Shown: positions 721 through 64,000 of the stretch, piece after piece | Position numbering within the stretch: position 1 is the first letter of the stretch | Layout of the letters: each line of letters opens with the position of its first letter | Assembly: GCA_038087875.1 (NCBI GenBank) | Contig: CM075993.1 | Span: 2,110,001-2,174,000 of the forward strand | DNA: 64,000 nt | Source: Malacoraja senta | Lineage: Eukaryota | Direction of reading: 5' to 3' | Position numbers and translations under genes: made by a program | Notes under the pieces: generated by a model | Told to the model about the DNA's origin: nothing | The model's input: only the letters and a program-made list of their open reading frames with translations | The model's database searches: none

Positions 721-1115
721 CCCAAGCGCAGGCTCGGCGATCGTTTCGCTGAACACCTCCGCTCAGTCCACCTAAACCTACCCGATCTCCCGGTGGCTCA
801 GCACTTTAACTCCCCCTCCCATTCCCAATCTGACCTTTCTGTCCTGGGCCTCCTCCATTGTCAGAGTGAGGCCCAGCGCAAATTGGAGGAACAGCACCTC
901 ATATTTCGCTTGGGCAGTTTACACCCCAGCGGTATGAACATTGACTTCCCTAACTTCAAGTAGCCCTTGCTTTCTCTCTCTCTCCAACCTCTCCCCCTTC
1001 CCAGTTCTCCCACCAGTCTCACTGTCTCCGACTACATTCTATCTTTGTCCCGCAGCATCTCTGGAGAGAAGGAAGTGGCGACGCTTCGGGTCGAGACCCT
1101 TCTTCAGACTGGTCA
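721..1115 (+). mobile_element. Penelope-like element fragment (GIY-YIG C-terminus) with inverted terminal piece
   Basis: Closely similar to 53050-53290 (KRRLGDRFAEHLRSV...HFNSPSH...EEQHLIFRLG), followed by a reverse-oriented terminal repeat. Confidence 0.85.
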
Positions 1116-2969
1116 TTGTTAGCTGCGGGCTGAATGAAAACGTGCTACACAAGTCTGTGTTGAAAAGCCTTTGAATAAGATTCATTAGGTACTGAAATTT
1201 GTTTGAATTCTCCCTGAAATGTGTTACACGACACACAGTTGCTTTTGAATCACTTGAAATCGCAAGAATTAACAAGAGTTAATATTTGCACTGGGATTTT
1301 TTAACATCATTGCTGACAAGACCTGTATTTATGGTCCATTCCTGATTGCTCTGAAACCCAGTGGCTTGTTAGACCATTGTTGAGATCAGTTAAGAACCAG
1401 TGGGCTATAAATTCTTTTGTATAGTGTGAAGTTTTTACTGTGTCACCTCAAGGAATTTAATCTAAATTCCAATTATGAAATGCAATTGGCTTTTTGGGGG
1501 TGGGTCACACAGGTTTGAACATTTTTTTATTGGCTTCTATGTGTTTCTAACATGAAAGCAGCAGAAAAAATGCTTCAAAGTCAAATGGCTTGCTATTCGG
1601 ATTTGAGCTCAATTAGTTGCATGCAGCAAAAATCAAACGCTGGAGAGGAATGGGCAGTTGATGTTTTCATTCGAGACCCATTCTCATGTATTGTCACAAA
1701 ACATAATTCATGTTCATAAGTGATGGGAGTAGAATTAGGTCATTTGGCCCATCACAAAAGTCCACTCCGCCATTCGATCATGGCTGATCTATCTTTCTCT
1801 CATAACCCCATTCTCCTGCCTTCACCCCATAACCCCTGACACTCGTACGAATCAAGAATCTATCTATCTCTGCCTTCAAAATATCCACTGACAGCATCCA
1901 CAGCCTTGTGGAGTAGAATGGCAATGAATTCTGAAGATTCACCACCCTCTGACTAAAGAAATTCCTTCTCATCTCCTTCCTAAAGGGCCTGTCCCACTTA
2001 CGTGATTTTTTTCGGCGACTGCCGGCACCCGTCATAGCAGGTGGCCGAAAATGTTCAACATGTTGAAAGACCAGCGGCGACCAGAAAAAGGTACGACTCT
2101 TTGGGCGACTACTCACGGCCATACAGGCGTCACCTCGCGACACATCTATACAAGTCCATTTTGACGTGTTTAGCCCACATCCCTCTATTTAAGATCATAA
2201 GTGATAGTAGAATTAGGCCATTCGTCCCACATTCTACTCCACCATTTCATCATGGCTGATCTATCTCTCCCTCCTAACCCTATTCTCCTGCCTTCTCCCC
2301 ATAACCTCTGACACCAAGTCTAAAGAAGGGTCTGAAAGCCCATTTGAGTCTGAAGAAGGGTCTTGACTTGGAAGCTCACCTATCCATATTCTCCAGAGAT
2401 GAGGCATGACCCGTTGAAATACCCCTGCACTTTGCATCCGCCTTTCATATAAATGAGGATAAATGAAGGACATTCCTTTAGGAAGATGAGGAAGAATTTT
2501 GTACTCCAGTGCTTTGTGTCCATTTACATAAACCAGCATCTGTAGTTCCTTGTTTCTACCTTTAGAGTTTAAAGTTGAGTAATACAGCATGGAAACAGGC
2601 CCTTCGGCCCATTGTGTCCATGCCAGCCCATCAATCACCCATTCACACTAATTCAATGTTAACCCACTTTCATCAGTCAGAGGGTGGTGAATCTGTGGAA
2701 TTCATTGCCACAGAAGGCTGAGGAGGCCCTCAATGGATAATTTTAAAGCAAAGACAGATAGATTCTTGATTAGTGCGGGTGTCAGGGGTTATGGGGAGTA
2801 GACAGGAGAATGGGGTTTGGAGGGAGAGATAGATCAGCCGTGAATGAATGGCGGAGTAGACTTGATGGGCCGAATGGCCGAAATTCTGCTCCTATCACTT
2901 ATGAAGGACAACAAATAAATACTGAGGCTCCATCAGCTAGTTTCAAATCGAAACTTGCAGTGAATGTTC

Positions 2970-2985
2970 TTTATTTCGTTTTAAT
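2970..2985 (-). terminator. Candidate LOXL1 polyadenylation signals (ATTAAA 2985-2980, AATAAA 2975-2970)
   Basis: First canonical hexamers I found on the minus strand downstream of the stop codon. They sit in AT-rich unique sequence with a U/GU-rich tract about 45 nt further on. Confidence 0.3.
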
Positions 2986-3305
2986 ATTGCAATTATACAT
3001 CCAGCCTACAAAAGTTCAGTAAAAATTAACAATTTCTTGTGAAATATTTCTGCTATTTTAAGTAATGCATACACACATGGTTGCCAAGGCAGAGTCTTTG
3101 AGTGCAAAGTTATATAATCCTATGTGATCGACATGGATTGAGTTAAAGACCAATGATACAGTAGAGTAATGTTTGCTCTCAGGTTGTCCAGTTTATGAGT
3201 CCTGAGAACTCGAAATAAAAGCAGAGACCAGTTCCGTGAACAATGTGTAGGAAGGAACTGTAGATGCCTGTTTAAACCGAGGATAGATGCAAAATGCTGG
3301 AGTAA

Positions 3306-3694
3306 AGCCCCTGTCCCACTTAGGAGACCTAAACAGCAACCTCTGGTGACCTTGTCCGCCACCCAAAAAAAATCAAGGTCGAGGTGACCTGCAACCTCCT
3401 ACCACCTCCCACGCATATGTTGAAAACCTTCCTCGACTATGAAGAAAACCGGCTTCGTCTAGACCTGCGACTAAAAAATTATCGTTTTTTAAAACGGCAA
3501 CTTATTTTTAGTCGAGGCCGGTTATAATCACGATGAAAAAATAGCAGCAACCTAGATGAAGCTTCGACCGCGCGGAAACCACTTTCGACCATTAGGGAGA
3601 GTGACCAAAACCTCCAGTGACCTCGGGGAAACCTTGGGTGGCGGGCAAGGTTACCAGAGGTTGCTGTTTAGGTCTGCTAAGTGGGACGGGGGCT
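3306..3694. mobile_element. PIF/Harbinger-type MITE, complete
   Basis: About 60-bp imperfect TIRs starting AGCCCCTGTCCCACTT; TAA duplicated at 3303-3305 and 3695-3697; splits the host sequence GGAG-TAA-CTCAGC. Confidence 0.85.
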
Positions 3695-5870: not shown

Positions 5871-5874
5871 AATA

Positions 5875-6172: not shown

Positions 6173-6270
6173 GTCTTTCTGCTGACTGGTCAGCAGGCGA
6201 CTAAAGCGTTCCACTGTACCTCGGTACACGCGACAATAAACTCAACTCAACTCAACCCAATTGGAAAAAG

Positions 6271-6536
6271 TTTGAAGAAGGGTTTCGGCCCGAAACGTTG
6301 CCTATTTCCTTCGCTCCATAGATGCAGCAATTTTGTCTACCTTGGAGAAACTCTGCGGGTGCAGCAGCATCTATGGAGCGAAGGAAATAGGCAACGTTTC
6401 GGGCCGAAACCCTTCCGGGTTTCGGCCCGAAACGTTGCCTATTTCCTTCAGGGTTTCGGCCCGAAACGTTGCCTATTTCCTTCGCTCCATAGATGCTGCT
6501 GCACCCGCTGAGTTTCTCCAGCATTTTTGTGTACCT
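6271..6536. mobile_element. Penelope-derived foldback short element with 14-bp target duplication
   Basis: Inverted and tandem copies of the hammerhead terminal repeat, flanked by CCAATTGGAAAAAG at 6257-6270 and 6537-6550. Confidence 0.8.
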
Positions 6537-8172
6537 CCAATTGGAAAAAGGCAGGTTCACATGTTTCTGAGTGTGTAACTCCTTTCTAAGTAGAAGAAGG
6601 CTAAGGGGCAGGCTCTTCTAAACTTTCTTTGGCATTATTTTGGCACTAAAGAGGCAGTGTAGCACAATTCACCTTAATTAACTAAATAAATCATTCAATG
6701 AATCAACAGAGAACCTCATGTTTGTGGAGCTTTGGAGTTGTTGCCTCACGGTGCCTGAGATCTGAGATCAGTCGTCACCTTGGATGCTGTCCGCGTGGAG
6801 TTTGCACGTTCTCCCTGCGACTGTGCGTATATCCTCCCTCATCCCGTAGCCGTGCCGGTTGGAAGGTTAATTGTGTTGGAAGGAACTGCACCGAAGGTAG
6901 ACACAAAATGCTGGAGTAACTCAGCGGGACAGGCGGCATCTCTGGAGAGAAGGAATGGGTGACGTTTGGGTCGAGGCCCTTCATCAGACTGAGAGTAAGG
7001 GAGGGGGGAAAACTAGAAGGCATGAAAAGGTACAGAACAAGTCGCGTCAGGTAAAGTCGAGTCATCGATGACCAAGGAAGGGCAGAGCCCACAATGGTCT
7101 ATTGTTGGCTGGGGACAAGGCAACAACGAAGGGATACACATGGTGAAATTAGCAAGAGGACTAGGCTGGGGGGGGGGGGTGGATGACAAGAGAGGGGGGG
7201 ACTTTGACAGTGGAGGAGGCCCAGGACAGAAAGGTCAGTGTGGGGAATGGGAGGGGGAGTTAAAAGTGTGTCGGAGGGAACTGCAGATGCTTGCTTCTAC
7301 CAAAGGTAGATACAAAGTGCTGGAGTAACTCAGCGGGTCAGGCAGCATCTCTGGAGAAAAAGGATGGGTGACGTTTCAGGTCGGGACCCTTCTTCAGTTG
7401 TCACCCATCCCATTTTCTCCAGAGATGCTGCCTGACCCGCTGGGTTACTCCAGCACTTGGTGTCTACCTTGGATGAGTGGTGGTCTTGTCATCGTGTCCG
7501 GCACGGACATTGTGGGCCGAAAGGCCTGTTCTTGTGCTGTACTGTTCTATGTTCTATGATTCTGGGAAGGGTTGAATGCTGGAAAGGACATCCCCTGCTT
7601 GATTGAATCAAAGGGATGGACGTGACCAAGACATACTCGCTTGGGGAAGCTGGGACGGTTGGAAATATTCAATCCAAAATCTGTTCGAAAATGGGCCAAA
7701 GTTCAGCACATTCAAGACCAAAGTGGGAAGATTTGTGATCCTGGCCAATAACCCCCCGGTAGATAATGCAGGAATATACCGATGTGGATGCCCAACCCTG
7801 GTCTTCAATAGGCAGGGAAGAGTGAGTTGGGCTTACGGGCTACACTTGCATCTATTTCTTATCTATTGAAAAGTGCAACAGAGGAATTGGCTTTCCTAAT
7901 GGGCATGCCTAGATTGTAACGAGGGGTGCTAAGAGTGGCTTTTCCAGATGTCCATACACAGGCGTTGGCTGACGGGTCAGTGCGGAGGTTTATATGTAGT
8001 GGGGTCGCCTCCAGGTCCACAGGTCTCTCGACACCCCTCTTGGATACTTTGGTTGTGACTGATCTCCAGGTGACAGCTACCAAACCACAGCCGCTGCAGG
8101 ATAAAGTTCGCCCCCCCCCGCGACGATGTCAAGCAGTATGGAGGCAGTGTTTTGAGACTCAAAACTTGAAGA

Positions 8173-8179: not shown

Positions 8180-11100
8180 CTGGATAATAAAAAAAACCAA
8201 ATGGCAGTGAAAGCCTCAACAAGCAGTTTCAACATCCCTTACCTCAAGAATAAGGACAGAACTTTTATTATAAATCCAGGAACAAAGAACTGCAGATGCT
8301 GGTTTATACCGAAGATAGACACAAAAAGCTGGAGTAACTTAGCGGGACAGGCAGCATCTCTGGAGAGAAGGAATGGGTGACGTTTCGGGACAGGCAGCAT
8401 CTCTGGAGAGAAGGAATGGGTGACGTTTCGGGACAGGCAGCATCTCTGGAGAGAAGGAATGGGTGACGTTTCGGGTCTCGACCCTTCTTCAGACTGATGT
8501 CAGGGGACAGGGAGATACATAGATAAGGAAGTGTGAGGTGTGAAAACAGGGCAAAGGGGATGGAGATCAAGGAAAATGTGGAATAGATCATTGTTCGCTG
8601 GGAGAAGTTGACAACTGACATCCCAACATCAGTCTGAAGAAGAGTCTTGACCCGAAGCGTCAACCATTCCTTGTCTCCATGAGATGCTGCCTGTCCCGCT
8701 GAGTTACTCCAGCTTTTTTGTCTACCTAAAAATACTTACTGTGTTATTTTACAATTTGTAGTGGCAACCTGTTGTCCTGTGTAATGAATGTTGCATCTGA
8801 TCACATTGTTGGTGAAATCGGATTCTGGTATAAGGTAATTGGGATTTACTTGAAGCTGTAACATAAAAAGACAAATTATAAAGACATATAGAGACAGGAG
8901 GAACTGCAGAGTCTGGCATCTGGAGCAAAACACAAAGTGCTGGAGTAACTAATTGGGTCAGGCAGCATAAGTCCATAAGTTCATAAACGAGAGGAGCAGA
9001 ATTAGGCCATTCGGCCCATCAAGTCTACTCCGCCATTCAATCGTGGCTTATCTCAGAGGGGGTGGAGGCCGGTTCTCTGGATACTTTCAAGAGAGCTAGA
9101 TAGGGCTCTTAAAGATAGTGGAATCAGGGGATATGGAGAGAAGGCAGGAACGGGGTACTGATTGGGGATGATCAGCCATGATCACAGTGAATGGCGGTGC
9201 TGGCTCGAAGGGCCGAATGGCCTACTCCTGCACCTGTTGTTGATTGTCTATTTATCTATCCTTCCCTTTCAACCTGCATCCTCCCCATAACCCCTGACAC
9301 CCGCACTAATCAATAATCCATCTATCTCTGCCTTAAAAGTATCCATTGACTTGGCCTCCACCGCCTTCTGTGGCATCTGTGGAAGGAACGGATAAGGATA
9401 CCCCCTTCGGTCTGAACCAGTGTCCTGACCCAAAACGTCACCTCCCCATTCCCTCCACAGATGCCGCCCGACCCAATGAGTTACCCCAGCACCTTGTGTT
9501 CTGCCGCAAAAATATTTGCTTCACAATATTGAGCAAAGCAACAATTATCTCTACAATTACCTTTAGAATATAATTCCCGGGCTGGACGTCTGTGATGTCA
9601 ATCCACTGACAGTCAATATCTGCGTTGTAGGTGTCATAGCAACCAGGACTCAGCCCCTGAAAGACCAAAGAAGATGTCTGCGATGTTAAATAGCAATGTC
9701 TTGGCCCCCACGATTAACGAACATTAACGGTCGCGGTGGCGCAGCGGTAGAGTCGCTGCCTTCCAGCGAATGCAGCGCCGGAGACCCGGGTTCGATCCCG
9801 ACTACGGGTGCTGTCTGTACGAGTTTGTACATTCTCCCCGTGGGTTTTCTCCGAGATCTTCGGCTTCCTCCCACACTCCAAAGACGAACAGGTTTGTAGG
9901 TTAATTGGCTTGGTGTAAATGTTTTAAAAATTGTCCCTTAGTGGGTGTAGGATGGTGTTAATGTGCGGGGAGTCCTTCAGCTCATGATATCTGTGCCATA
10001 CATGAGCCTGAGGCCGCATCCTATCGTGATCCATATCCCTCCATTCCTTGCGTCATTTTATCCTGCAGATGTTGTTAACATCTCAAATTGTGCAGGAAAA
10101 AGGACCATTAAGGGAAAGAAATCCATTCTTTGAAAGATCATCCAACTGCTCTCCTCTCATGCCCTTTCCCCACAGCTCTGCAATTTACTTCTTTTCAATT
10201 AGATATTCAATTCCATTTTAGAAAATTACCCTTGAATTGTTTCCAAGATCCATTCGGGCGGTGTAATCCTGATTCTAATGCTTAATGAAAATTCTCAGCT
10301 CCCCTCAATTACCTGAAATGTATGTCTCCTGGCTAAATAACCTGCCTGCCGATGTAATTGTCCAATCTTTAACGTCTGTGGAGAATATTGCCATCACCTA
10401 CTCAGCGAGGCATGGCAAATATTTATCTAAAGAAGAGGTTTATTTACAATGGGGAGGAAGGAAGTGCAGATGCTGGTTTTAAAGCGAAAATAGACTCATC
10501 TTAGAGAGGTGTAGAACATCATGAGAGGAATCGATCGGGTGGATGCACAGTCTCTTGCCCAGAGTAGGTGAATCGAGGACCAGAAGACATAGGTTTAAGG
10601 TGAAGAAAAAATGATTTAATAGGAATCTGAGGGGTAACTTTTTCACACAAAGGGCGGTGGGTGTATGGAACAAGCTGCCAGAGGAAGTAGTTGAGGGACT
10701 ATCCCAACGTTTAAGAAACAGTTAGACAGGTACATGGATAGGACAGGTTTGGAGGGATATGGACCAAACGCAGGCAGGTGGGACTAGTGTAGCTGGGACA
10801 TGTTGGCCGGTGTGGGCAAGTTGGGCCGAAGGGCCTGTTTCCACGCTGTATCACTCTGTGACTCTATGACTCAATAAACACAAAAAGCTGGAGTAACTCA
10901 GCGGGAGAGGCAGCATCTCTGGAGAAAAGGAATAGGTGATGTTTTGGGTCGAGACCCTCCTTCAGACTGAGTCAGGGGAAAGGGATGGTGGTATAAAGAG
11001 ATTTAGAACAAAAGATATGCGAAGATATTTTATATTAGACAGTGAACATGCAAACTCCGTACAGACAGCACCCGTAGTCAGGATCGAACCGCAATGGGAG

Positions 11101-14100
11101 AAGGTTCTGCAATGGGAGAAGGTTCCTCTGGCTGGAGTCCACGTCCTACCTGAGTGTGCGATGTGCAGGCGTAGCGCTTCAGGTGGCCAAAGTCACATGT
11201 GGTGTCCTCAAGGCAGAAGCTGGCCTTGTGACCCTCAGCTACCTTCCTGCCAGTGGCCACATCCAGTAGGTCATAATGGCTGAACTCACCCATGCTGTGG
11301 TAGTGCCTGGAAACGAAATGAGCGGAAGAAATTAACGGAGACATCAAGAGTCTAGTCGGGGAAGAAGGTTCTCGACCCAAAACGTCACCCATCCCTTCTC
11401 TCCAGAGATGCTGCCTGTCCCGCTGAGTTACTCCAGCATTTTGTGCCTATCAAGAGTCCACAGTGTTTCAGTTCAATTTTGTTTATTGTCACGGAACATT
11501 GTCATGGTTTCAATGCCATATGTACCAAAACATTCATACTTGCAGCAGCATAACATGTCAGTTTTTTTTATTGTCACATGGACCGAGGTACGGTGAAAAG
11601 CTTTTTTGTTGCGGGCTATCCAGCCAGCGGAAAGACTACAAATGGTTAGAATCAAGATGCAGAATAAAGAGAATAATGTTTAGTGCAAGATAAAGTCCAG
11701 AAAAGTCCAAGTAAAGATAGCCCAAGGGTCTCCAACGAGGTAGATGGTAATTCTGGACCACTCCCTAGTTGTTGATGGGATGGTTCAGTTGCCTGATACC
11801 AGCTGGGAAGAAACTGTCCCTGAATCTGGAGGTGTGCACATCACCACTCACAGGTCCTCCTCCAAGTTTCACGCAACCTTGGAAGTGGACTCCAGCGGGC
11901 GGCGACGCTGACTTTAACATCGGGAGCCGAGATCGCCAGCGGTGGAGCTCCGTCCAGCGCGGCCCTGTCGGCTTCGGGAGCCGCGGTCTCCGGCAAGGAA
12001 GCGGCCGTTCCAGGCGTCCCAAGCCGCTGAGAGGGTTCTCCCGACGCCGGAGCACCATCACCCGGCGAGAAGGGCGTGGAACATTGGGCCCCGTAGCAGC
12101 GACTGCGGAGAGCCTCAATAGGCCCCGACTATGGGTGGACAAGGGATGGATGGACAAGACTTTGTGTCTTCCCTCACAGTGGGAGCCATTGTGAGGGAAT
12201 GTTTTTACGTTTTATGTTAAATTTCTTTATAATGTGTGTTGTATTCTTATTAACGTGCTGCAATGGCAACTTGAATTTCACTGCACCAATTGGTGTATTT
12301 GACAATAAATGAACCTTTGAACCTTTGAACCTCCACAAATGAAGAAATGGGAAGAAGACTCTCGACCCGAAACATCGTCCATTCTTTCTCTCCAGATGTG
12401 TTAACCACTGGGTCTCTGGTTACTTTAGAGTTGATAGGTCAGTTTAGAATTTTGAGATTCAGCGTGGAAAGCGGCCCTTCGGCCCATCGAGTCAGCGCCA
12501 TCCAGCGATCACCCCCCGTTCTCTCGTCCTATCGTACGCACTGGGGACAATTTCCAGAAGCCAATTAAGCTACAAACCTGCACGTCTTCGGAACGTGGGA
12601 GGAAACTGGAGCACACCGGGGAAAACCCACGCGGTCACGGGGAGAACGGGGGGGGGGTTCAAGGAAAGAGCGTTCAGGTCGATCGCGGCAATGTCTCCAC
12701 ACAATCTTTCCACCATCATGCACAAGAAGCCATAGAAGCCACAAAACAGACACCATTGCGTGCAGATGCCGAGAAGTGTGTTCACATCTGGCTGAACAAC
12801 TCCTAATCTGTTGCGTGGACTCCATAAGAAGAAGAAGGCGGGGAGAATGTACAAACTCTGTACAGACGGCACCCGGAGTCAGGATCGAACCCGTGACTCT
12901 GGCGCTGTGAGGCAGCAACTCTACCGCTGCACCCACTCAATGCAGGTGGCAGATTTCAGTGAACTGCGATTGCATTGAACCAGTGAATTGCATCTTTACA
13001 ACGATCTCTGAGTTTTATTTCCGACTTCTGTTGTGTACATATATATATATAATTGATAAGACCTGAGGATCATAAATAGGATCATTAAAATGTGGTGGAA
13101 TGAGAAAATTAAGTGGTCAGATTAATCTTGCATGAGATAGGTTTACAGTACCATAAAACCACTGGCATTAATGTCTTGATGTTCCAAGGTGCTTCGCTGA
13201 TGCACACATGGATGCACGGGGATACAGAAAGAGAGGTTAGAGCAGCAGATTAATTCATTCCTCTCACAGCCACTCATTTAGTTAGTGGTAGCTCCAAATA
13301 CAAGAATAGGCTAACTCCTCTGATTTTGAATAGCCCCCCTCTCCCCCTTCTCCCCCTCCCCTCCCATGCCCCACCTGGACTTGAACCTATGCCTCCGTTC
13401 CCCCTCCACCCACATTCATCCTCCAGCTTCACAATTTGTAACTCTTCAACCCTTTTAGTTTATTCAGTTAAGTTTTAGAGATACAGCGCGGAAACAGGCC
13501 CCGGGGTAACTCTGCGGGTCAGGCAGCATCTCTGGAGGGAAGGAATGGGTGACTTTCGCGTCAGCGAAATGTATTTCTATTCCTTGGTGTTCTGGTTTCT
13601 TCCGACACACTATCGACCCTAAAGGGCCTGTCCCACTTGGGTGTCATTTGCGCTTCACGCAGGTGGCGCGCGAAGATTTTGTGGATCCCAGAATCCTGGG
13701 GGCGCCGCGCGCGACTGCCTACGTCACCACGCACACGTCATGACGCGTAAACGATGTAGCGTGCAAATGACGCCCAAGTGAGACAGGCCCTTAAACGTCA
13801 CCCATTCCTTCTCTCCAGTGATGCTGTCTGAAGAAGGGTTTTGGGCCGAACGTTGCCTATTTCCTTCGCTCCATAGATGCTGCTGCACCCGCTGAGTTTC
13901 TCCAGCATTTTTGTGTACCTGCTGGAGAAACTCAGCGGGTGCAGCAGCATCTATGGAGCGAAGGAAATAGGCAACGTTTCGGCCCGAACCCTTCCGGGTT
14001 TCGTCCCGAAACGTTGCCTATTTCCTTCAGGGTTCGGCCCGAAACGTTGCCTATTTCCTTCGCTCCATAGATGCTGCCGCACCCGCTGAGTTTCTCCAGC

Positions 14101-17100
14101 ATTTTTGTCTACCTTCGATTTTCCAGCATCTGCAGTTCCTTCTTAAACATCCTGCTGTCTGACCCGCTGGAGTTACCCCAAATTTAGTGTCTATCCTCGG
14201 TTCAAACCAGCATCTGCAGTTCCTTCCTAGACGAGAGACGTAGGCTATTGTGCAGGGCAGTCTGCTTCCACAATGCATACCACTGCAGGCTAGATAACAC
14301 ATCCTGAGGGCCATATCTGTCCGTTCAATCAATGGATTGGAGCTGCTATCAAGCTGCCCAGTTGTGTCGCTGGCTTATAACAAACACAAGGACCATGCTG
14401 ATAGGGATGTTTAACTTGGAAAGCAACATCACTTGGCAGAGAATGTGATGACAAGTTGAAAGGACAGCTTCCCCTCCAAGCACAATGAGTCATGTAGAAC
14501 ATGCACTAAATGTTTTCCTTGATAAAGCTGGCTAGTAAAACACTGACCCCGTGCGAACATCATCCGCCTTCCAATGATCTCATCATGGTCTGCTGAAGAC
14601 ATTTGGTGTGTGTTGCCTTTGTTTAAGTATTTCTTTGGTCCCGGTTAGAAAAGGCAAAGCATATTTCAGCCAAAACAGCCCTAGACTTACTGGAATCTAC
14701 ACCCTGGGAGTGGTGAGTGTGGAATTCTCTGCCTCAGAGGGCGGTGGTGGCAGGTTCTCTGGATACTTTCAAGAGAGAGCTAGATAGGGCTCTTAAAGAT
14801 AGCGGAGTCAGGGGAAGGCAGGAACGGGGTACTGATTGGGGATGATCAGCCATGATCACATTGAATGGCGGTGCTGGCTCGAAGGGCCGAATGGCCTACT
14901 CCTGCACCTATTGTCTATTGTGAGTCTTGTGTCATCTAAGCTGGAGAGGGTGGAGAGAAGTGTGTCGGAAGGAACGGCAGATGCTGGTTTACATCGAAGA
15001 TGGACAGGAAAAGCTGGAGTAACTCAGCGGGTCAGGCAGCATCTCTGGAGAGAAGGAATGGGTTACGTTTCTGGTCGAGATTCTTCTTCAGTCTGAAGAA
15101 GGGTCTCAACCCGAATTCCATATCTCCAGAGATGCTGTCTGACCCGCTGAGTTCTCCAGCTTCTTGTGTCTGTCTAGGGTGCAGGGAAGATTACGAGAAT
15201 GATGCCAGGACCTGAGGGCGTGAGCTAGAGGGAGAGGTTGAGCAGGCTAGGACTGTATCCTTGTTGATCGAAAAGAGGTGTACAAAGTCATGAGAGGAAT
15301 AAATAGGGTGAATACAACAGACTCGTTTACCCAGAGTAGGGGTATCAAGAACGGGAGGACATGGGTTCAAGGGGGGGGGGGGGGGAAGATTTATTGGGAA
15401 CCTGAGGGGCAATTTTGCCACACCAACAGCGGCAGGTGTATGGAAGGAGCTGCCAGAGGAGGTAGTTGAGGCAGGTACTGTCACAACATTAACAAGACAG
15501 GTACATGGATAGGATAGGTTTTAGAGGGATATGGGCCAAACGCTGGCAGGTGGGACTAGTGTAGAATGGGCTGTCGGTCGGCGTGGGCAAACTGGGCTGA
15601 AGGGCTGGTTCCACGCTGTGTCAATCTGTGATTCTCTGATATGTACTAGAGAACCTAAGACAATAAGAACAGGGGTGGTCACGGTGGCACAGCGGTAGAG
15701 TTGCTGCCTTACAGCAAAATGCAGCGCCAGAGACCCGGGTTCGATCCCGACTACGGGGTGCTGTCTGTACGGAGTTTTGTACGTTCTCCCCGTGACCTGC
15801 GTGGGTTTTCTCCGAGATCTTCGGTTTCCTCCCAAACTCCAAAGACGTGCAGGTTTGTAGGTTAATTGGCTTGGTGCATGTGTAAATTGTCCAAGTTGGC
15901 GATATGCAAAGTACTGCCCTGCCGACTACAAAATTCAGAAGGTTCAGAAGGGAAGAAGTCCAGAGGTTAATTGTATGCCTTGACCCCGTTCACCCCAACC
16001 CCTATACATCTTAAATCTGCTGCTTGCTGCTTGGTTGTCTATCAATCACAACTTGAAACTACTTAGCAACTGATGTCTACAGTCCTAGTTTAGTTTACGG
16101 ACATAGCGCAGAAACAGGCCCTTAGGCCCAAGAGCCATAATGATCTTCCAATATGGTTCCTCCAGTACTATGCTTAGTTTGGCTTAGAAATACAACATGG
16201 AAACAGGCCCTTCGGCCCACCGAGTCCGCGCCGACCAGCGATCCCCTATCCCACACACACTAGGGGCAATTTACAATCTTTACCAAAGCCAATCAACCAA
16301 CAAAAAATGTACGTCTTTGGAGTGTGGGAGGAACCCGGAGCACCCGGGAGAAAACCCACGCAGGTCACGGCGAGAACGTACAAACTCCGCACAGACAGCA
16401 CCCGTGGTCAGGATCAAACCCGGGTCTCTGGCGCTGTGAGACAGTAACTCGCTCGCTGCGCCACCGTGCCGCCCCAAGCCGTTTGATTCTCCTTGATGCA
16501 AAGCTGACAATTTAGTTACCATAAGACATCGGAGCAGAATTAGGCATTCGGCCCATCAAGTCTGCACCACCGTTTGATTGTGGCTGATCAGTTTTTCCCT
16601 CTTAACTCCATTCTCCTGCCTTCTCTCAGTAAACTTTTGTTGCCCTAACTATCAGGAACCTATCAACCTCTGCCTTGAATCTCCACAATGACTTGGCCTC
16701 CACCGCCGTCTGTGGCAATGAATTCCAAAGATTCACAACCCTCTGGCCGAAGAAATTCCTCCCTCATCTCCATTGTGAAGTAGGGCTACTGGAGTCTGTG
16801 TCCTTGTGACTTTGAGGCAAAGTGGTCGGCTTGGCGGTTTGGCGCCGGCTGCGAGATCCTTTGTCCAAATTGGCACAGCCCGGCCTTTGTGGCGGTGAAC
16901 TTTTGACTTGTTTATTACGAATTCCTCACATAGTTTGCAAGCTTGTTGTGTAATTATGGACAGGCAGCAAAACCCCAGCCAAGATGCGAGGAAAAAAAAC
17001 AACATGTTATTGGGACTCAGGACTGCTGGTCCGTTTTTCTCAGGGGAGATGTCTCAGTGAGATCTCAATGGGAAGCACCTAGAATTAGAGCTTGCAATCG

Positions 17101-35842: not shown

Positions 35843-36298
35843 CTTAAACATAGAAGATACGATACAACTTTAGTGATCGCCGGAGGGATGTTGGTCGGCC
35901 GACAGCCACAACACACAGCAAGGTACACAAAAATTAAAAGTGCAAGCAAGAAGATAAAGACAAGCGACTGTGGGCTGGCTGCCGTGTGTACGACACCTTC
36001 ACCTAGAGAGTGTAACACAGGAACGGGCCCTTCGGCCCACGACGTTTGTGCAGAACACGAGGCCAAGTTGAACGATCCCATCTGCCTGTACAAGATCCAC
36101 ATCCCTCTATTCCCCGCGCTTCCATCTGCCTGTTTTTTTACCTGAGTTACTCTAAGGCTTAAGAAGGAACTGCAGATGCTGGAAAATCGAAGGTAGACAA
36201 AAGTGCTGGAGAAACTCAGCGGGTGCGGCAGCATCTATGGAGCGAAGGAAATAGGCAACGTTTCGGGACGAAACGTTGCCTATTTCCTTCGCTCCATA

Positions 36299-40219: not shown

Positions 40220-41091
40220 CTCCGTTGGCAGATCTAAATCCAGGTGATGCAGGTGATACTCAGCAGGAGAGGCGGCTTCTCTGGAGAAATTTCACTGCCT
40301 GTCCTGCTGAGTTACTGGGGCGCCCCTGAGATGAACCAAATTAATAGGTGACCCTTAATGAAGTGCCCACGGATTCTCAATTCCTTAACACAGGAGAATC
40401 CATCCCATCAAGACTCTTCAGAACCTTGTTTAAGAAGGAACTGCAGATGCTGGAAAATCGAAGGTAGACAAAAATGCTGGAGAAACTCAGCGGGTGCAGC
40501 AGCATCTATGGAGCGAAGGAAATAGGCAACGTTTCGTCCCGAAACGTTGCCTATTTCCTTCGCTCCATAGATGCTGCTGCACCCATCACAACCTTGTATG
40601 GTTCAAAAATTCATTTCATTCTTTTAAACGCCAGTGAGAATAGACTCAAACCTGCTCAAACGATCCCCCAAATCAACCTCTTCATTGGAGTTGTAGCTAG
40701 ACTTCCAGCTGTTGTGATCCATTCCACCTGCAATAAAGGCCAGCATTCCATGTGCTTTGCCTGCTGTATCTGCATGATAATTCTCTTCATTTAACCAATA
40801 TCAGGCTTCACAGACTTCACCCCAACCTCTTCGGCGCCCCAGTGCTAAATATTTTGCACTTGCTTAACCCAGTTTGATGCCTTTCCGAATTCTTTGATAC
40901 TTTTCTGGATGGAGTCGAGAGAAATGATTGCTGTGCAACTGCCAAACCACGATGACCACACCCAGCCTCTGATGGACTTCAGGAGGTGGGGAACGATGAT
41001 TCCTTGTGGTTAACTTGGGAAACACGTTGATGCTGGAGGAGTCCAATCCCAGTCCACTGGACAATTGATTGGTTGAATGATACAGCGTGGA

Positions 41092-41735: not shown

Positions 41736-42267
41736 GGTTCCTGGGCTGGATGTCAGACTGGAGGGGCTGAAGGGACTCGGGGAGGTTTACCGTCGACTCT
41801 CGAGCAGAATCTCACACAGGTGTACGAATCAAATAAAACCCCTCTGGCAGTTGTCAATTTACTTTTAATTAGGTGCAGCTGCGGTTAGAATAGACCTGAG
41901 CTCTGGACAGGGAGGGAGTCCATCACAGGCAGCATGGTGTGGGCTAGAGATGACATGTTTCTCTAGACTCCCACAGGCGCTCCAAGCTCACAGATTTATG
42001 TCATCGTTCAACAGCGATAGACAAATCCTGGGGGCACTTCAGCTTATTACATCAGAAATCAGACATAGCTAACAACTCCACTGAGAGTATTCGCCAAGTT
42101 AGGACACGTGACATCCATTTGGGTTTACAAGGGCCTGCTCTGTCTTCCCTCTTGTTTAAGAAGGAACTGCAGATCGGAGGTAGACAAACATGCTGGAGAA
42201 ACTCAGCGGGTGAGGCAGCATCTATGGAGTGAAGGAATAGGTGACGTTTCGGATCGAGACCCTTCCG

Positions 42268-42604
42268 GGTCTCGACCCGAAACGTCACCTATTCCTTCGC
42301 TCCATAGATGGTTCCTGGTCTCGACCTGAAACGTCACCTATTCCTTCGCTCTATAGATGGTTCCTGGTCTCGACCCGAAACGTCACCTATTCCTTCGCTC
42401 CATAGATGGTTCCTGGTCTCGACCCGAAACGTCACCTATTCCTTCGCTCTATAGATGGTTCCTGGTCTCGACCAGAAACGTCACCTATTCCTTCACTCCA
42501 TAGATGCTTCCTGGTCTCGACCCGAAACGTCACCTATTCCTTCACTCCATAGATGCTTCCTGGTCTCGACCCGAAACGTCACCTATTCCTTCGCTCCATA
42601 GATG
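42268..42604 (+). repeat. 49-bp tandem array (7 units) from the Penelope terminal repeat
   Basis: Units start at 42268, 42317, 42366, 42415, 42464, 42513, 42562. Confidence 0.9.
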
Positions 42605-42850
42605 TTGCCTCACCCGCTGAGTTTCTCCAGCATTTTTGTCTACCTGTCTTCTCACTTGACTTCTATCTTTTATTTTTTTTCCAGGTTGTATCACTCTATT
42701 AGTCGTAGAGTGATACAATGTGGAAACAGGCCCGAGTCCTGGCAACATCCTCGGAAACCTCCTCGGCACCTTTTCCGGCATATTTTTACATAACTTGCAA
42801 TCATTTCAGCATCCTCTGTTCCAAGAAAACAAGCCGCTCTTTTCTTAAAC

Positions 42851-45249: not shown

Positions 45250-46002
45250 ATAGACACAAAGTGCTGGGGTAACGCAGCGGGACAGGCAGCATCTCTGGAG
45301 AGAAGGCATGGGTGACGTTTCGGGTCGAGACCCTTCGTCTGACTGACGTCAGGGGGGGAGGGAGATACATAGATAAGGAAGCGTCAGGTGTGAAAACAGG
45401 GCAAAGGGAATGGAGATCAAGGAAAATGTAGAGTAGATCAGTATTAGGTGGGAGAAGGTGACAACAAAGAAAACAGAGATAGAATGTAGTCGGAGGCAGT
45501 CAGACTGGTGGGAGAACTGGGAAGGGGGAGTGGGTGGAGAGAGAGACAGGGGAAGTAAGGGTTACTTGAAGTTAGAGAAGTCAATGTTCATACCGCTGAG
45601 GTGTAAGCTGTCCAAACGAAATACGAGGTGCTGTTCCTCCAATTTGTGCTGGGCCTCACTCTGACAATGGGGGGGGAGGCCCAGGACAGAAAGGTCAGTG
45701 TGGGAATGTGGGGGGGGAGAGTTAAAGTGTTCAGCAACCGGAAGATCAGGTAGGTTTAGTCGGCCTGAGCGAAGGTGTTCAGCGAATCGATCGCCGGGCC
45801 TGGGCCTGGTCTTGACCAAGCGCAGGCTCGCCGATCATTTCGCTAAACTCTTGTATATCGACGAGACCAGGTGCAGGCTCGGCGATCGTTTCGCTGAACT
45901 CTTGTATATCGGCGAGACCAGGCGCAGGCTCGGTGATCGTTTCGCCGAACACCTCCGCTCAGTCCGCCTAAAACCTACCTGATCTCCCCGTTGCTAAACA
46001 CT
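45250..46002 (-). mobile_element. Penelope-like element 3' part with foldback junction and triplicated GIY-YIG segment
   Basis: Minus-strand EN coding sequence 45562-45800 plus terminal repeat, then a plus-strand copy from about 45814 with three ~51-bp in-frame repeats. Confidence 0.85.
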
Positions 46003-48636: not shown

Positions 48637-48686
<50 letters not shown>

Positions 48687-50508: not shown

Positions 50509-50523
50509 TAAAGTGTAAAGTAA

Positions 50524-51084: not shown

Positions 51085-52814
51085 GTAAAGTCTAAAACAG
51101 ATCAAGCAGCATCTGTAGAGGGAATGGACAGATATGATACGGTACGATAGAACTTCATTTATCCAGGAGGGAAATTGATCTCCTGAGAACATTTTGGTTT
51201 GGGACCATTCTTCAGACCCTCCTTTCTTCCTTAAACATATTCTCATAGTTCGGCTCTGTGTGATCAAGTGACTAAATTTCAATGAGCAAACTTATGGATC
51301 CATTCAATGTTTGTCTTTTCCATTGAACGCAGGGATTTGCTTACAAAGAATTGCAGATTCAATTTAAATTCATCCAGTGCGATCAAATGCCAAATCTTAT
51401 TAATTGGCATATCCAATCATGAATTCAATGGTTTGCGTTTAAGATAATTGTCCATTAATAGACACATGGAAGTATAACAGTTTGCAATTTAACTCAAATC
51501 ACTTTCTATTGTATTTGAAAAGGACAACAGGAAACCAATTATTCCAAATCAATTACTAAGAGTCAAGTGATAATTTGCATTTGTTCACTCACCTGTTAAT
51601 GTCAATCATTTGGTTTATCTCCAACAGAATCCTCGTTCATCCATGCTGATACGAGTCGTCTGACGATTCTGTGCATATTTCTGTCGCGAGGGTGAAATGG
51701 CAAACCTCAATGGATTGATCTTATTTCCCTCATTTCTCCCAGCCTCTCCCTCTCCCCCTCTCTCTTTCACTCTCCCCCTCTCTCCCTCTTCCTCTCATGT
51801 CTTCACACATCCCAGCAGTGGTGCAGCAGTAGAGCCACACGGTAGAGTCACAGCGCCAGAGACCCGGGTTCGATCCTGACCTCAGGTGGCATCTGTGTTG
51901 AGTTTGCACATTCTCCCTGTGTCTGAACTAAGTTAGTTTAGAAGGCTGCTTCCCAATTGTATTAACGGCCCCACAGCAGAAGCATCCACGTCGCGGGGCA
52001 GGAAACTGGAAGTATCCCGAGCTAATTCTGCTACCACCATCATCTATTGCAACAAGTAATGGCCTCCACTGATTGTCGCCAGAAGCTTGCGTCCATTTCA
52101 GGACGGACAATGACAGCGAGGTCAACATTTGTACCAACATGGACACGGAAAGAAGAAGAATTCTATTCATGGTGGCCATCCATGTAATCCTCGATTAAAT
52201 TTGGCTTTCAATACCAGCCAGTGGAAACAGAAACCTTCAAAAGACAATCATTTATACATGTCAAGGTGTCTGTACATGTGATAATGAAGAACAACTGAAG
52301 CATTACATGGAAGCATTGAATTTGCTGAACTAAAGAAGATGGTTAAATCCCAATTGATCCTGCAATCCAGAAGGATTGATGTACAACACTTTCTAAGCCA
52401 TTACATGTCCATGCACGAGTCTATAAACACAACGTTGACCTTCTGCTATGCCTAGGGTCAACTCCAATCTTCCTTCACATATCATGGGAGCAGACACTTG
52501 AGGCACATTCAGAAACTCTTCATCGCACGACTTACTGTTTAAGAAAGAACTGCAGATGCTGGAAAAAAATTGAAGGTAGACAAAAATGCTGGAGAAACTC
52601 AACGGGTGAGGCAGCATCTGTGGAGCGAAGGAAATAGGTGACGTTTCGGGTCGAGACCCTTCTTCAGGACCCGAAGCGTCACCCATTCCTTCTCTCCAGT
52701 GATGCTGCCTGTCCCGCTGAGTTACTCCAGCATTTTGTGTCTACCTATCTCATAATGTTATATATACTTCTTCCATGGTCTCCCCACAACCTCTGGTATT
52801 CTAAGTCTTTCCAA

Positions 52815-53490
52815 CCTCTCCCTGTAGCTCACACGCCTCATTCGCCCCTTCCCACCCGAACCACCCCCTCCCCGGGCACTTTCCCTTGCAACCGCAAGAG
52901 ATGCTACACTTGTCGCTTTACCTCCCCCCTCGACTCCATTCAAGGACCCAAGTAGTCGTTCCAGGTGCGTCAGAGGTTCACCTGCACCTCCTCCAAGCTC
53001 ATCTATTGCATCCGCTGCTCTAGATGTCAGCTGCGCTACATCGGTGAGACCAAGCGTAGGCTTGGCGATCGTTTCGCCCAACACCTCCGCTCGGTTCGCA
53101 ATAACCAACCTGATCTCCCGGTGGCTCAGCACTTCAACTCCCCCTCCCATTCCGAATCTGACTTTTCTGTCCTGGGCCTCCTCCATGGCCAGAGTGAGGA
53201 CGACTGCAAATTGGAGGAGCAGCACCTCATATTCCGCTTGGGCAGTTTGCACCCCAGCGGTACGAACATTGACTTCTCTAATTTCAGGTAGTCCTTTACT
53301 TTCTCCTCCCCTTTTCAGCTCTCCCTCAGCCCACTGGCTCCACATCTTCCTTTCTTTTTCCCGCCCCCCCCCCCCCCCCCTCCCACCCTCACATCAGGCT
53401 GAAGAAGGGTTTCGGCCCGAAACGTTGCCTATTTCCTTCGCTCCATAGATGCTGCCTCACCCGCTGAGTTTCTCCAGCCATTTTGTCCTC
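52815..53490 (+). mobile_element. Penelope-like retroelement 3' part (Neptune-type): Cys-rich linker, GIY-YIG endonuclease and terminal repeat with hammerhead motif
   Basis: Translations PGTFPCNRKRCYTC and LIYCIRCSRCQLRYIGETKRRLGDRFAQHLRSV...HFNSPSH...EQHLIFRLGSLHPSGTN; an in-frame stop at about 52953 shows decay. Followed by CTGAAGAAGGGTTTCGGCCCGAAACGTT at 53399-53426. Confidence 0.9.
53399..53426 (+). ncRNA. Minimal type I hammerhead ribozyme motif (Penelope-associated)
   Basis: CUGAAGA + A + stem II GGGU-UUCG-GCCC + GAAA + CGUU, about 110 nt after the GIY-YIG stop codon. Confidence 0.7.
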
Positions 53491-57690: not shown

Positions 57691-57707
57691 AATAAAGGAA
57701 TTATATT

Positions 57708-57924
57708 GAAGATAGACATTAAATGCTGGAGTAACTCAGCGGGACAGGCAGCATCTCTGGAGAGAAGGAATGGGTGACGTTTTGGATCGAGACCGTTCTT
57801 CAGAGTCTTGACCTGAAACATCACCCATTCCTTCTCTCCAGAGATGCTGCCTGTCCTGCTGAGTTACTCCTGCTTTTTGTGTCTATCTGCAGTTTAAACC
57901 AGCATCTGCAGTTCCTTCCGACAC
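57708..57924. mobile_element. Penelope-derived foldback short element with 14-bp target duplication
   Basis: AAAGGAATTATATT at 57694-57707 and 57925-57938; inverted arms inside. Confidence 0.8.
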
Positions 57925-58479
57925 AAAGGAATTATATTAGATAATAGACAATAGACAATAGGTGCAGGAGTAGGCCATTTGGCCCTTCGAGCCAGCACCG
58001 CCATTCAATGTGATCATTGCTGATCATCCCCAATCAGTACCCCGTTCCTGCCTTCTCCCCATATCCCCTGACTCCGCTATTTTTGAGAGCCATATCTAGC
58101 TCTCTCTTGAAAGCATCCAGAGAACCTGCCTCCACCGCCCTCTGAGGCAGAGAATTCCACACTCACCACTCTCTGTGAGAAATTAGCATCTTACCCATTA
58201 GAAAATACAACATGCCTTGCGGAGGTTGTCACAAAAACTTCCACCGTTAATCGATATTTTGCCACGATCAAATATGACTCAAGCAAAAGAAAGCTGGGAT
58301 TGCCATTGTTATTTGTACATTGGAATTTAAACCTTGTGAACCTGTTATCGGAGTTCATCGTGTGATTGCTGAGAACAGCACAATTAGCCCTTCCTCAAAG
58401 CCATTTGCCGAGCATCACTTGTCTTGTCTGTGGGAGAAATCAACTTTTTAATGTAGGGGCAAGGGGATAACCATATTTC

Positions 58480-61600: not shown

Positions 61601-61646
61601 ACATTCTTTCAATGTTTTTATTGCCTATTCTTCATGAATTAGAATC

Positions 61647-61941
61647 CACAGTCTTAGAATAAAGGGGAGGTCATTTAAGACTGAGGTGAAAAAAAACGTT
61701 TTCACCCAGAGAGTTGTGAATTTATGGAATTCCCTGCCACAGAGGGCGGTGGAGGCCAAGTCACTGGATGGATTTAAGAGAGAGTTAGATAGAGCTCTAG
61801 GGGCTAGTGGAGTCAAGGGATATGGGGAGAAGGCAGGCACGGGTTATTGATAGGGGACGATCAGCCATGATCACAATGAATGGCGGTGCTGGCTCAAAGG
61901 GCCAAATGGCCTCCTCCTGCACCTATTTTCTATGTTTCTAT
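61647..61941 (+). mobile_element. CR1-clade LINE 3' fragment
   Basis: Same subfamily as 55220-55510. Confidence 0.85.
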
Positions 61942-62116
61942 TGTGTTTTACCTACTGACCACTGTTGGATTGCTGGTTTGTGATGTGTGTGGTATATTGT
62001 GTTGTGTTGCTGGGTATGTGAACTGTACACACACTCTGATGTTCTGCACAAATGAAGTTCCTAACGGATAAATAAAGTGCATTGAATATCCTTCTATAAA
62101 CGATTCCCCAGTTTCT

Positions 62117-62211
62117 GAGTCTGAAGAAAGATCTCGACCTAAATCGTCACCTATTCCTTCTCTCCAGAGATGCTGCCCGTCCCGCTGAGTTACTCCAGCA
62201 TGTTGTGTCCA
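62117..62211 (+). mobile_element. Solo Penelope-derived short element with 12-bp target duplication
   Basis: TCCCCAGTTTCT at 62105-62116 and 62212-62223; the insert begins GAGTCTGAAGAAAG. Confidence 0.75.
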
Positions 62212-64000
62212 TCCCCAGTTTCTTATCCAGGCTCACTCTTAAATTGTTCATGTAATCAATCCCTGCTCCTCACCACACAGTTACTGCATTAGTTTATCCA
62301 CACATTTACCCCCTCTGTACAGATAAGTTTAAAAAAAACTCTCCCACAAAATTCTAGCATCATTATATTCTGTCAAACTATTGCATGTTACTCAACTGTC
62401 CAAAAAGAGCTGTATAAATGGAAGACTCTTAGTACACAGAGGTTGCCATTTGGCCCATTGCTTCAAATACTAACCCTTTGAACAGACCTGCACAATCAGT
62501 CCCATACATAGAGTCATGGAGTCATATGCAGCATGGAAACAGGCCCTTCGGCCCAACGCTGAACAAGATGCCCCATCTACACGAGTCCCACCAGCCTGCG
62601 TTTGGCCCATATCACCATAAACCTTTCCTATCCGTGTTGGAGTTTGGGTTGAGTTTAATGTCTCGTGTTCCGAGGTACAGTGAAAAGCCTTTGTTGCGTG
62701 CTAACCTGTCAGTGGAATGACAATACACGGTTACATTTGAGCCATCCACAGTGTACGGATACATGACAAAGGGAATAAGGTGAATAACATTTAGCGCAAG
62801 ATAAAGCCAGTAAAGTCCAATCAAGGAAAGCGTGAGGGTCTCCAATGAGGTAGCTCCAATATTCCTGCCCAAATGTCCCTTCTATGTTGTTCTAGTGCCT
62901 GCCTCAACTACCTCCTCTGACAGTTCATTCCATGCATCCATTACCATGTGTGTGAAAATATTGTCCCTCAGATTCCTATTAAATCTTGCCACTCTCACCT
63001 TAAACCAAGGTCCACTGGCTCTTGATTCCCCGTCTTCAAGGAAGAGTTAGATTTAGCGGTTTTCAAGAAAGAGTTAGATTTAACTGTTTTCAAGAGTTAG
63101 ATTTAGCTCTTAGGGCTAATGGAATTAAGGGATATGGGGAAAAAGCAGGAACGGGGTACTGATTTTGGATGATCAGCCTTGATCATATTGAATGGCAGTG
63201 CTGGCTCGAAGGGCCGAATGGCCTACATCCTGCATCTATTTTCTATGTTTCTATTCGGGGTAAATAAAAAGACACTGTGCATCTACCCGATCTATTCCCC
63301 TCAAGATCTTATACACCTCTATAAGATCACCCCTCATCCTCCTGCACTCAGAGGAATGATGTCCTAGCCTGCCCAACCCTCTCCTTGCAGTTCAGGCCCT
63401 CAAGTCCTGGCAACATCTAGTTAAACCTTCACTGCACTCTCCTCTTGGCCCCAGCATCCCTTTCCATTGAAGCTTGTAATCAATTCCCTGTTGAAGGCGA
63501 CTTGCAGGCAATGCTTTGTAGATCACGAAAAATGCATTTACCTCCAGTTACGCTGTAAATATTCCCAATTGCCACGCTCGAAAAGCTAATCCTATGATCA
63601 GTCAACCAACTGTTGACGGAGCTGCCGACTGTGTATTCGTGTTCATTCCAACTGAATTAGCTGCTCAGTCCAGAATCGGCACTGAAGTGAAGCGATGGGG
63701 AAGGTTCCACATCCAGAGAGGTTCAGCCACTTAGTTCCAGCATTGGTCAGAGACAGACTCACGGTTTATCCTGCATTCACATCACCACAATGGATGTCTT
63801 TCCTTCTGTAAACCCTGGAGTCTGTCTGCTTGTAAGTCTGAAATGTTCCACTGATCCAAACCCTATAGGTGACCTGAAACGTCACCCATTCCTTCTCTCC
63901 AGAGATGCTGCCGGTCCCGCTGAGTTACTCCAGCACTTTGTGTCTGTCTTGGGTGTAAACCAGCATCTGCAGTTCCTTCCTACACGTGGGAATTTCAGGC

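What the first reader, a model, noticed from the sequence alone, without database searches (positions are those of the whole stretch)
1050..63985. Genome-saturating family of hammerhead-ribozyme short retroelements derived from Penelope ends
Seen: the commonest repeat in the window (dozens of copies) is a ~100-150 nt unit containing CTGAAGA-A-GGGTCTCGACCC-GAAACGTC, or the variant CTGAAGA-A-GGGTTTCGGCCC-GAAACGTT. Stem II is kept in both subtypes (GGGU-CUCG-ACCC vs GGGU-UUCG-GCCC, U-A to U-G). At 53399 the unit sits about 110 nt after a Neptune-type GIY-YIG ORF, identifying the parent. Several copies have no coding sequence yet are bracketed by their own direct repeats: 10 bp (11343/11449), 12 bp (62105/62212), 14 bp (6257/6537, 57694/57925), 16 bp (36147/37001). 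Known: Penelope-like elements carry minimal type I hammerheads with a palindromic stub for stem III that are thought to cleave as dimers. Inference: these are independently inserting, non-autonomous ribozyme retroelements (retrozyme-like) mobilised by Penelope RT/EN. Stem I pairing looks short by eye, so activity is unproven.
Basis: partly seen in the sequence, partly recalled or inferred. Interest (0 to 1): 0.85.

Follow-up and report, generated by a model that had tools for sequence, protein, structure and literature searches.

The report
Truncated Penelope retrotransposon ends, not retrozymes
The repeat is real and abundant, but most copies are the short 3' ends of a Penelope-type retrotransposon that break off at its hammerhead motif and were likely inserted by the full-length parent, and the ORF-less subfamilies that do appear to copy themselves have lost the ribozyme core.

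Summary
Observation confirmed: 105 arms (15% of the window), all five target-site duplications exact, 41,995 exact cores genome-wide, about 4% of 450 kb sampled elsewhere. The retrozyme reading is mostly not supported. The short copies are 3' ends of Neptune-type Penelope-like elements: the ~100 nt after the hammerhead is the parent's 5' UTR, and short and ORF-bearing copies share two 3' ends (+65, +100 from the predicted cut) and 11-15 bp duplications. 5' ends pile up inside the hammerhead (94 of 170 arms in -36..-13), not at the cut site; only 38 of 275 arms keep all core nucleotides. Head-to-head pairs join one +65 arm to one +100 arm in 44 of 50 cases (50% expected), pointing to two priming events per insertion. 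Discrete ORF-less families exist (a palindrome junction, 1,148 exact copies; a 66-bp array junction, 13,755), but lack the CUGANGA box; the young arrays sit inside older copies without new duplications. Cleavage is untested; stem I is 2 bp. Known kind, with testable mechanistic detail.

The parts
52840..53486 (+). 5'-truncated Neptune-type copy: Cys-rich linker and GIY-YIG end (one in-frame stop, frame ends 53294), 3' UTR, hammerhead core 53399-53426, tail to about +60
53399..53426 (+). minimal hammerhead core, GUU subtype; predicted cut after 53426
52536..52746 (.). head-to-head pair whose arms are of different subfamilies, no duplication found (probably two insertions)
11343..11458 (+). solo short copy ending at site 1 with 10-bp duplication (11343/11449)
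62105..62223 (+). solo short copy, 5' end about -32, ending at site 1, 12-bp duplication (62105/62212)
57694..57938 (.). head-to-head pair, site-1 arm plus site-2 arm, 14-bp duplication (57694/57925)
36147..37016 (.). head-to-head pair (site 2 left, site 1 right) with a 47-bp x 15 internal array, 16-bp duplication; array units share mutations, so it expanded in place
6257..6550 (.). composite with the recurrent palindrome junction (about 6410-6453) and 34-bp duplication, 14-bp target duplication
13826..14150 (.). second composite with the same junction
38874..39129 (.). third copy of the junction palindrome, site 2 left and site 1 right, 13-bp duplication
23290..23962 (.). young 66-bp tandem array (no CUGANGA box) carrying the captured junction, nested in an older head-to-head copy; no flanking duplication found
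42173..42645 (.). head-to-head pair with 49-bp x 7 internal array
8284..8727 (.). head-to-head pair (site 2 / site 1) with 43-bp x 3 array and a longer 3' UTR piece
40426..40584 (.). head-to-head pair joined in the stem II palindrome, 12-bp duplication
45250..45756 (-). GUC-subtype copy that still carries a GIY-YIG end and a 250-nt 3' UTR
22112..22405 (-). GUC-subtype copy with GIY-YIG end and 135-nt 3' UTR, ending at site 2
1047..63985 (.). all 105 arms in 59 clusters, many in introns of a lysyl-oxidase-like gene on the minus strand

Best explanation
Most of the short copies are 5'-truncated ends of Neptune-type Penelope-like retrotransposons, likely inserted as dead-end products by the parent's own reverse transcriptase and endonuclease rather than copied from one another. 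Shown: the parent unit is about 3.96 kb; the 100 nt after the hammerhead are its 5' UTR (ATG at +136); all copies end at +65 or +100; 79% of arms that reach -13 stop by -36; head-to-head pairs carry one arm of each end. Inferred steps: (1) the endonuclease makes staggered nicks 11-15 bp apart; (2) each nick primes cDNA at one of two internal start sites, one site per nick (twin priming; about 0.65); (3) the cDNAs run off the 5' end of a linear RNA that begins just upstream of the hammerhead (about 0.5; alternatives are cDNA-hairpin release or a protein roadblock), while long copies come from circular or tandem templates; (4) the two cDNA ends are joined, often through small palindromes in the hammerhead. 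Ribozyme cleavage does not set the insert ends. A minority (the junction palindrome and the 66-bp arrays) have a single ORF-less source each and likely spread secondarily, the arrays by homology-guided copying into older resident copies.
For: Tail equals parent 5' UTR in full-length copies. Each subtype also occurs with a GIY-YIG end upstream, 74 such copies with 3' UTRs of about 60-320 nt. 3' ends bimodal in 131 of 170 random arms; a 2.8-kb ORF copy has the same site-1 end and a 15-bp duplication. 5' ends: 94 of 170 in -36..-13, 25 beyond, 9 in -4..+4; stop rate 0.065/nt against 0.005-0.012 on either side; only 3 of 70 such solos have UTR-like DNA upstream, so the peak is not an alignment artefact. 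Mixed-site pairs 32 of 37 (p=3e-6) and 12 of 13 in a second set (p=0.002), pairs with an unassignable arm (8 and 9) left out. Duplications in 20 of 44 pairs, 13 of 132 solos, 3 of 300 controls. PMC11167929: a PLE nicks and extends both strands, starts at two internal sites that match genomic tail ends, needs RNA downstream of them, and does not need hammerhead cleavage in vitro.
Against: Discrete ORF-less families do exist, so not every short copy comes straight from a parent, and no tree of short versus ORF-linked copies was built. 119 of 132 solos show no duplication within the search range. 5' ends form a zone, not a single-base edge, which weakens the RNA-start step. The second-pass sample is 8 events from young subfamilies. 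No intact full-length ORF was seen among the loci fetched. The biochemical analogy is to a Poseidon-clade element.
Confidence: 0.78

Rival explanations
1. One reading: a non-autonomous retrozyme-like family whose RNA is processed by dimeric hammerhead cleavage, circularised and reinserted by Penelope enzymes.
For: Minimal type I core present; independent insertions with duplications; 5' ends clustered; occasional tandem complete cores (L050); animal retrozymes are proposed to derive from pLTRs (bioRxiv 10.64898/2026.07.22.740005).
Against: No end peak at the cut site; 38 of 275 arms keep the core; none of the window's 34-, 43-, 47-, 49- or 66-bp arrays contains CUGANGA; stem I is 2 bp and the hammerhead fold has probability <=0.01 in four monomers; many parent subfamilies, no private body.
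Confidence: 0.08
2. Head-to-head pairs arise from one cDNA that folds back at hammerhead palindromes, the second end being set by endonuclease cutting at the tail rather than by a second priming.
For: Junctions often sit on the small palindromes (overlaps of 9 and 15 nt); PMC8557442 ascribes the one-sided tail to endonuclease resolution.
Against: Fold-back from the +100 arm requires the +65 arm to start further 3'; in 12 of the 30 random-sample pairs it reaches more than 5 nt further 5' (read by hand), and in L002 and L107 the +65 arm is the longer, ORF-bearing one.
Confidence: 0.2
3. The hammerhead region is a structural or protein roadblock (or a cDNA-hairpin release signal) on a template that continues upstream, not the RNA's 5' end.
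For: A conserved alternative hairpin pairs -26..-17 with +1..+13; tandem-unit boundaries fall at its edges; ends are spread over 24 nt.
Against: Stops are not raised at the 3' edge of either stem (0.005-0.007/nt), and 7 of 8 second passes go through.
Confidence: 0.35
4. The 66-bp arrays are new retrotranspositions of a chimeric or rolling-circle RNA, not homology-guided invasions of older copies.
For: Head-to-tail units of a PLE tail segment are what template jumping would make; non-autonomous head-to-tail PLE derivatives are described (MRC1, PMC8557442).
Against: Internal units differ by 1.2% (49 of 4,026 nt) across four chromosomes while their outer ends are older, of several subfamilies and mutated (2-6 differences in 28 nt where scored); no flanking duplication in 0 of 10 arrays with both ends in view; strong regional clustering.
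Confidence: 0.25

Closest known systems
Neptune clade of Penelope-like elements (PMC8557442)
   Same: RT, CX2-5CxxC linker, C-terminal GIY-YIG, partial tandems forming pLTRs, heavy 5' truncation, inverted 5' copies, 30-40-bp tail at one end, hammerhead in the pLTR.
   Different: Here most insertions are only 95-135 nt because they stop at the hammerhead; the one-tail-per-pair rule is quantified (44 of 50).
PAc Poseidon element of Anolis (PMC11167929)
   Same: Two internal reverse-transcription starts downstream of the hammerhead that define the tail; both target strands extended; cleavage not reflected in insert ends.
   Different: Different clade; there the ORF starts in stem II, here at +136; the paper saw no strand difference in start site in bulk and did not report pairing within one event.
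Minimal hammerheads of metazoan PLEs (PMC4209133)
   Same: Same core, extra nucleotide before stem II, palindromic stem III stub; mostly single motifs linked to truncated PLEs, some close opposite-strand pairs.
   Different: Stem I 2 bp and stem II 4 bp here versus 4-5 and 7-8 bp in Schistosoma; 41,995 exact cores versus about 4,000 and 9,000 reported for coelacanth and Xenopus.
Metazoan non-LTR retrozymes (PMC7229834; bioRxiv 10.64898/2026.07.22.740005)
   Same: ORF-less, pLTR-related, can form tandem arrays.
   Different: Retrozyme units each hold a complete hammerhead; the arrays and palindromes here do not, and the solos are not unit-length repeats.

Membership tests
Neptune-type Penelope-like element (parent) | RT with C-terminal GIY-YIG endonuclease in one ORF | tested here: met
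   871-aa open stretch in L101 with RVT_1 (E=9.6e-6, below the curated cut-off) ending in the GIY-YIG domain (PF01541); no intact full-length ORF seen
Neptune-type Penelope-like element (parent) | CX2-5CxxC linker between RT and EN | tested here: met
   C-x4-C-x2-C in translations; shared with Nematis per PMC8557442
Neptune-type Penelope-like element (parent) | pLTR by partial tandem, 30-40-bp tail, inverted 5' copies | tested here: met
   tail about 35 nt
Neptune-type Penelope-like element (parent) | RT phylogeny within the Neptune clade | not tested
   no reference PLE sequences were held
Minimal type I hammerhead of PLEs | CUGANGA, GAAA and UH boxes, extra base before stem II, G10.1-C11.1, palindromic stem III stub | tested here: met
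   position frequencies over 116 cores; alignment A1; true of the subfamily motif, but of only 38 of 275 arms
Minimal type I hammerhead of PLEs | stem I of 4-5 bp | tested here: not met
   2 bp (G-C, U-A/U-G); a tried outer extension was 29% paired. A 2-bp stem I is described for D. virilis Penelope (PMC4209133)
Minimal type I hammerhead of PLEs | compensatory covariation | tested here: inconclusive
   stems I and II 90-95% paired but only one-sided changes in 24 related copies; the rival hairpin is kept about as well
Minimal type I hammerhead of PLEs | self-cleavage (dimer or protein-assisted) | not testable with these tools
   needs in vitro transcription
Non-LTR retrozyme | tandem units each with a complete hammerhead | tested here: not met
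   window arrays lack CUGANGA; one two-core tandem in 450 kb (L050)
Non-LTR retrozyme | discrete ORF-less family with its own sequence | tested here: inconclusive
   not met for the bulk; met for the junction palindrome and 66-bp arrays, which lack the ribozyme
Non-LTR retrozyme | monomeric linear and circular RNAs cut at the ribozyme | not testable with these tools
   no raw RNA reads were offered

The most novel reading that the evidence does not exclude
This genome records the Penelope integration cycle at scale: one insertion event uses both internal start sites, one per target strand; linear promoter-initiated RNA yields ~100-nt strong-stop inserts while circular RNA yields unit-length and longer copies; and a ribozyme-less 66-bp derivative has become a homing minisatellite that invades older Penelope remnants region by region, taking a captured palindrome with it.
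Probability: 0.3. Interest if true: 0.7.

Novelty: new member of a known kind. Interest (0 to 1): 0.42.

Why it matters
How Penelope-like elements integrate is still open. The end statistics give three predictions that the existing in vitro PLE assay can test directly: mutually exclusive use of the two start sites per event, termination at the hammerhead's 5' edge rather than its cut site, and no mobilisation of tail-only RNA. It also warns that hammerhead counts in such genomes mostly count truncated insertions, not retrozymes. The nested 66-bp arrays would be an unusual route by which a retroelement remnant spreads without its ribozyme.

Tried and rejected
Rfam scan: no hammerhead hit; the miRNA hits are palindromes below threshold. 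First genome search used the wrong reading frame; redone. L058 and L062 looked like pLTR-flanked full-length copies but were separate insertions. The 1,264-aa ORF in L153 is a PLE piece running into another element, not an intact ORF. An apparent antisense second core in the 3' UTR has no GAAA box. A sharp single-base transcription start at the TCAGT before the core was not seen: successive matches 0.85, 0.88, 0.73, 0.67, 0.71. Reiterative copying at insertion as the source of the 47- and 49-bp arrays: units share mutations, so later expansion contributed. A longer stem I: 29% paired. Junction followed by the ORF start: 0 exact matches, weak evidence. RNA: no RNA holder listed; contigs cannot show ends. 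The 3' end of full-length copy L027 was not in the stretch fetched. Earlier scan notes: nothing. Paper searches found no description of this family, of twin priming in PLEs, or of PLE-derived arrays spreading by gene conversion; Dfam and Repbase could not be consulted, so the family may already be annotated.
Full report
Setting. The window is G000:C17:2110001-2174000 in a 1.94-Gb genome and overlaps a lysyl-oxidase-like gene on the minus strand (PF01186). That the host is a cartilaginous fish is my recalled impression, not tested. Positions below are relative to the predicted hammerhead cut (+1 = first base after GUC/GUU).

Observation. BLAST with 30 ORF-linked copies found 105 arms in the window (9.9 kb) and 170 in 45 ten-kb stretches from elsewhere (18.3 of 450 kb). 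The exact 28-nt core occurs 41,995 times in the genome, control 0, 9 times in the window and 11 in the sample. All five direct repeats are exact. Only 13 of 105 and 25 of 170 arms keep all core nucleotides. Rfam gave no hammerhead match.

Parent. Walking upstream from the GIY-YIG fragment gave RT-linker-EN copies and full-length copies with a 5' pLTR. The unit is about 3.96 kb; the sequence after the hammerhead is the 5' UTR, ATG at +136. The linker has C-x4-C-x2-C, the Neptune/Nematis mark (PMC8557442, 12 passages read). No intact full-length ORF was among the loci fetched. The GUC and GUU subtypes and others each occur behind a GIY-YIG end with their own 3' UTR (74 copies), so the short copies are ends of several parent subfamilies.

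3' ends. 131 of 170 random arms end at +58..72 (site 1) or +91..110 (site 2); ORF-bearing copies end at the same sites. The 35-nt difference is the known PLE tail. PMC11167929 (parts 1-2 of 4 read, supplements not seen) showed for an anole Poseidon element that tail ends are two internal reverse-transcription starts, that both target strands are cut and extended, that RNA up to 172 nt into the ORF is required (146 nt past its cut, downstream of the start it maps), and that hammerhead mutants insert normally. By analogy, copies that end at the start sites would lack the downstream RNA needed for remobilisation; this is inference across clades.

5' ends. 94 of 170 random arms stop in -36..-13, 25 go further, 9 stop in -4..+4; the stop rate is 0.065/nt against 0.005-0.012. 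Only 3 of 70 such solos have pyrimidine-rich upstream DNA, and the 13 duplication-defined solo ends fall at -15..-42. There is no single-base edge. In full-length copies that pass the hammerhead a second time, 7 of 8 distinct events (duplicates merged by flank) go beyond -37, versus 25 of 119 first passes, or 11 of 32 for the matching subfamilies. I therefore favour run-off from a linear RNA starting just upstream; D. virilis Penelope has a pLTR promoter with initiator and downstream element (PMC2377424, 5 passages). Four further full-length copies begin at about +56..+90; three whose 3' ends were found are within about 25 nt of unit length, compatible with a circular template as proposed in PMC4209133 (parts 1-2 of 4 read, supplements not seen), but also with a tandem one.

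Head-to-head pairs. 45 of 192 clusters are head-to-head. One site-1 and one site-2 arm: 32 of 37 assignable pairs, and 12 of 13 in flanks of other loci, 50% expected; 8 and 9 pairs with an unassignable arm were left out. Duplications of 9 bp or more flank 20 of 44 pairs, 13 of 132 solos and 3 of 300 controls; 29 of 36 are 11-15 bp; all 20 pairs have exactly one site-2 arm (one 9-bp match may be chance); three clearly mixed-subfamily pairs have none. Inner ends vary independently, against simple fold-back. A tail at only one end is already described (PMC8557442); the pairing rule and its reading as two primings were not found in searches.

Ribozyme. The motif fits the minimal type I pattern. 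Stem I is 2 bp; stems I and II are 90-95% paired with one-sided changes only. Single-sequence folding gives the hammerhead pairs probability <=0.01 in four copies and the alignment prefers another hairpin. Minimal PLE hammerheads cleave poorly and the anole one needs protein, so activity remains possible for the parent and untested.

Discrete ORF-less families. A rearranged junction (hairpin join plus 34-nt duplication) occurs four times in the window and 1,148 times exactly in the genome, never exactly ahead of the ORF start. Of 20 loci taken from the first 100 listed, 19 lie in arrays of a 66-bp unit (-8..+58), some in 256/322-bp higher-order repeats. The 66-bp junction has 13,755 exact matches, none in the first 2.69 Mb of C1, then 100 in 0.7 Mb, and none in the 450-kb sample. 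Internal units differ by 1.2% from one window unit (loci were chosen by an exact match, which favours young ones), while the outer ends are old copies of several subfamilies, and no duplication flanks the 10 arrays (or the one array-free locus) with both ends in view. Contigs from four runs of four coded organisms show the 66-bp back-joint (37, 16, 10, 8 contigs; 85% likeness; one run may be this genome's source), so it is not an assembly artefact. Neither the junction nor the unit contains CUGANGA.

Comparison. Retrozymes have a complete hammerhead in each tandem unit and make circular RNAs (PMC7229834, 12 passages). Verdict: a new member of a known kind; interest 0.42 for the end rules and the nested arrays.

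Noticed in passing
window 51956-52161 (+); second copy L109 6199-6782: HDV-like ribozyme matching Rfam CPEB3 (33.3 bits, gathering 35) heads a ~195-nt repeat ending in GAA repeats. 1,522 first-look candidates in the genome; the 39 other scored matches start at query positions 16-29, near the predicted cut; the L109 copy is split by an insertion and flanked by a ~11-bp duplication. Likely a ribozyme-headed SINE with an RTE-like tail (RTE label recalled); one search found no paper. Possibly a better 'ribozyme short retroelement' than the finding itself.
   Followed up: partly
window 23290-23962; L160-L179: 66-bp arrays nested in older copies, regionally clustered (e.g. C1 2.7-3.4 Mb; junction form at C1 227 Mb, C2 86.6-90.5 and 193-195.5 Mb, C3 0.6-0.9 Mb).
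   Followed up: partly
window 30233 and 42257: The same hairpin join occurs in a second subfamily without the 34-nt duplication, suggesting the join can recur.
   Followed up: no
L136/L181, L137/L182, L132/L183, L027: Near unit-length full copies; L137 has the tail at both ends like the 'primitive' D. virilis form with two 34-bp repeats.
   Followed up: partly
G000:C3609 23185, 47095, 70887: RT-bearing copies at a regular 23.8-23.9-kb spacing, probably inside a large tandem array.
   Followed up: no
window 25182-26522 (-) and 11078-11446 (-): Exons of a lysyl-oxidase-like gene (signal-peptide-like first exon; PF01186 exon).
   Followed up: partly
window 35382-35873, 46739-47218, 49235-49654 and others: LINE 3' fragments (CR1/L2-like by recalled resemblance), several with short AGACAAT repeats; not analysed.
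   Followed up: no
window 45814-45945: 51-bp x 2.6 tandem derived from the GIY-YIG coding region, just upstream of the 45250-45756 copy.
   Followed up: no
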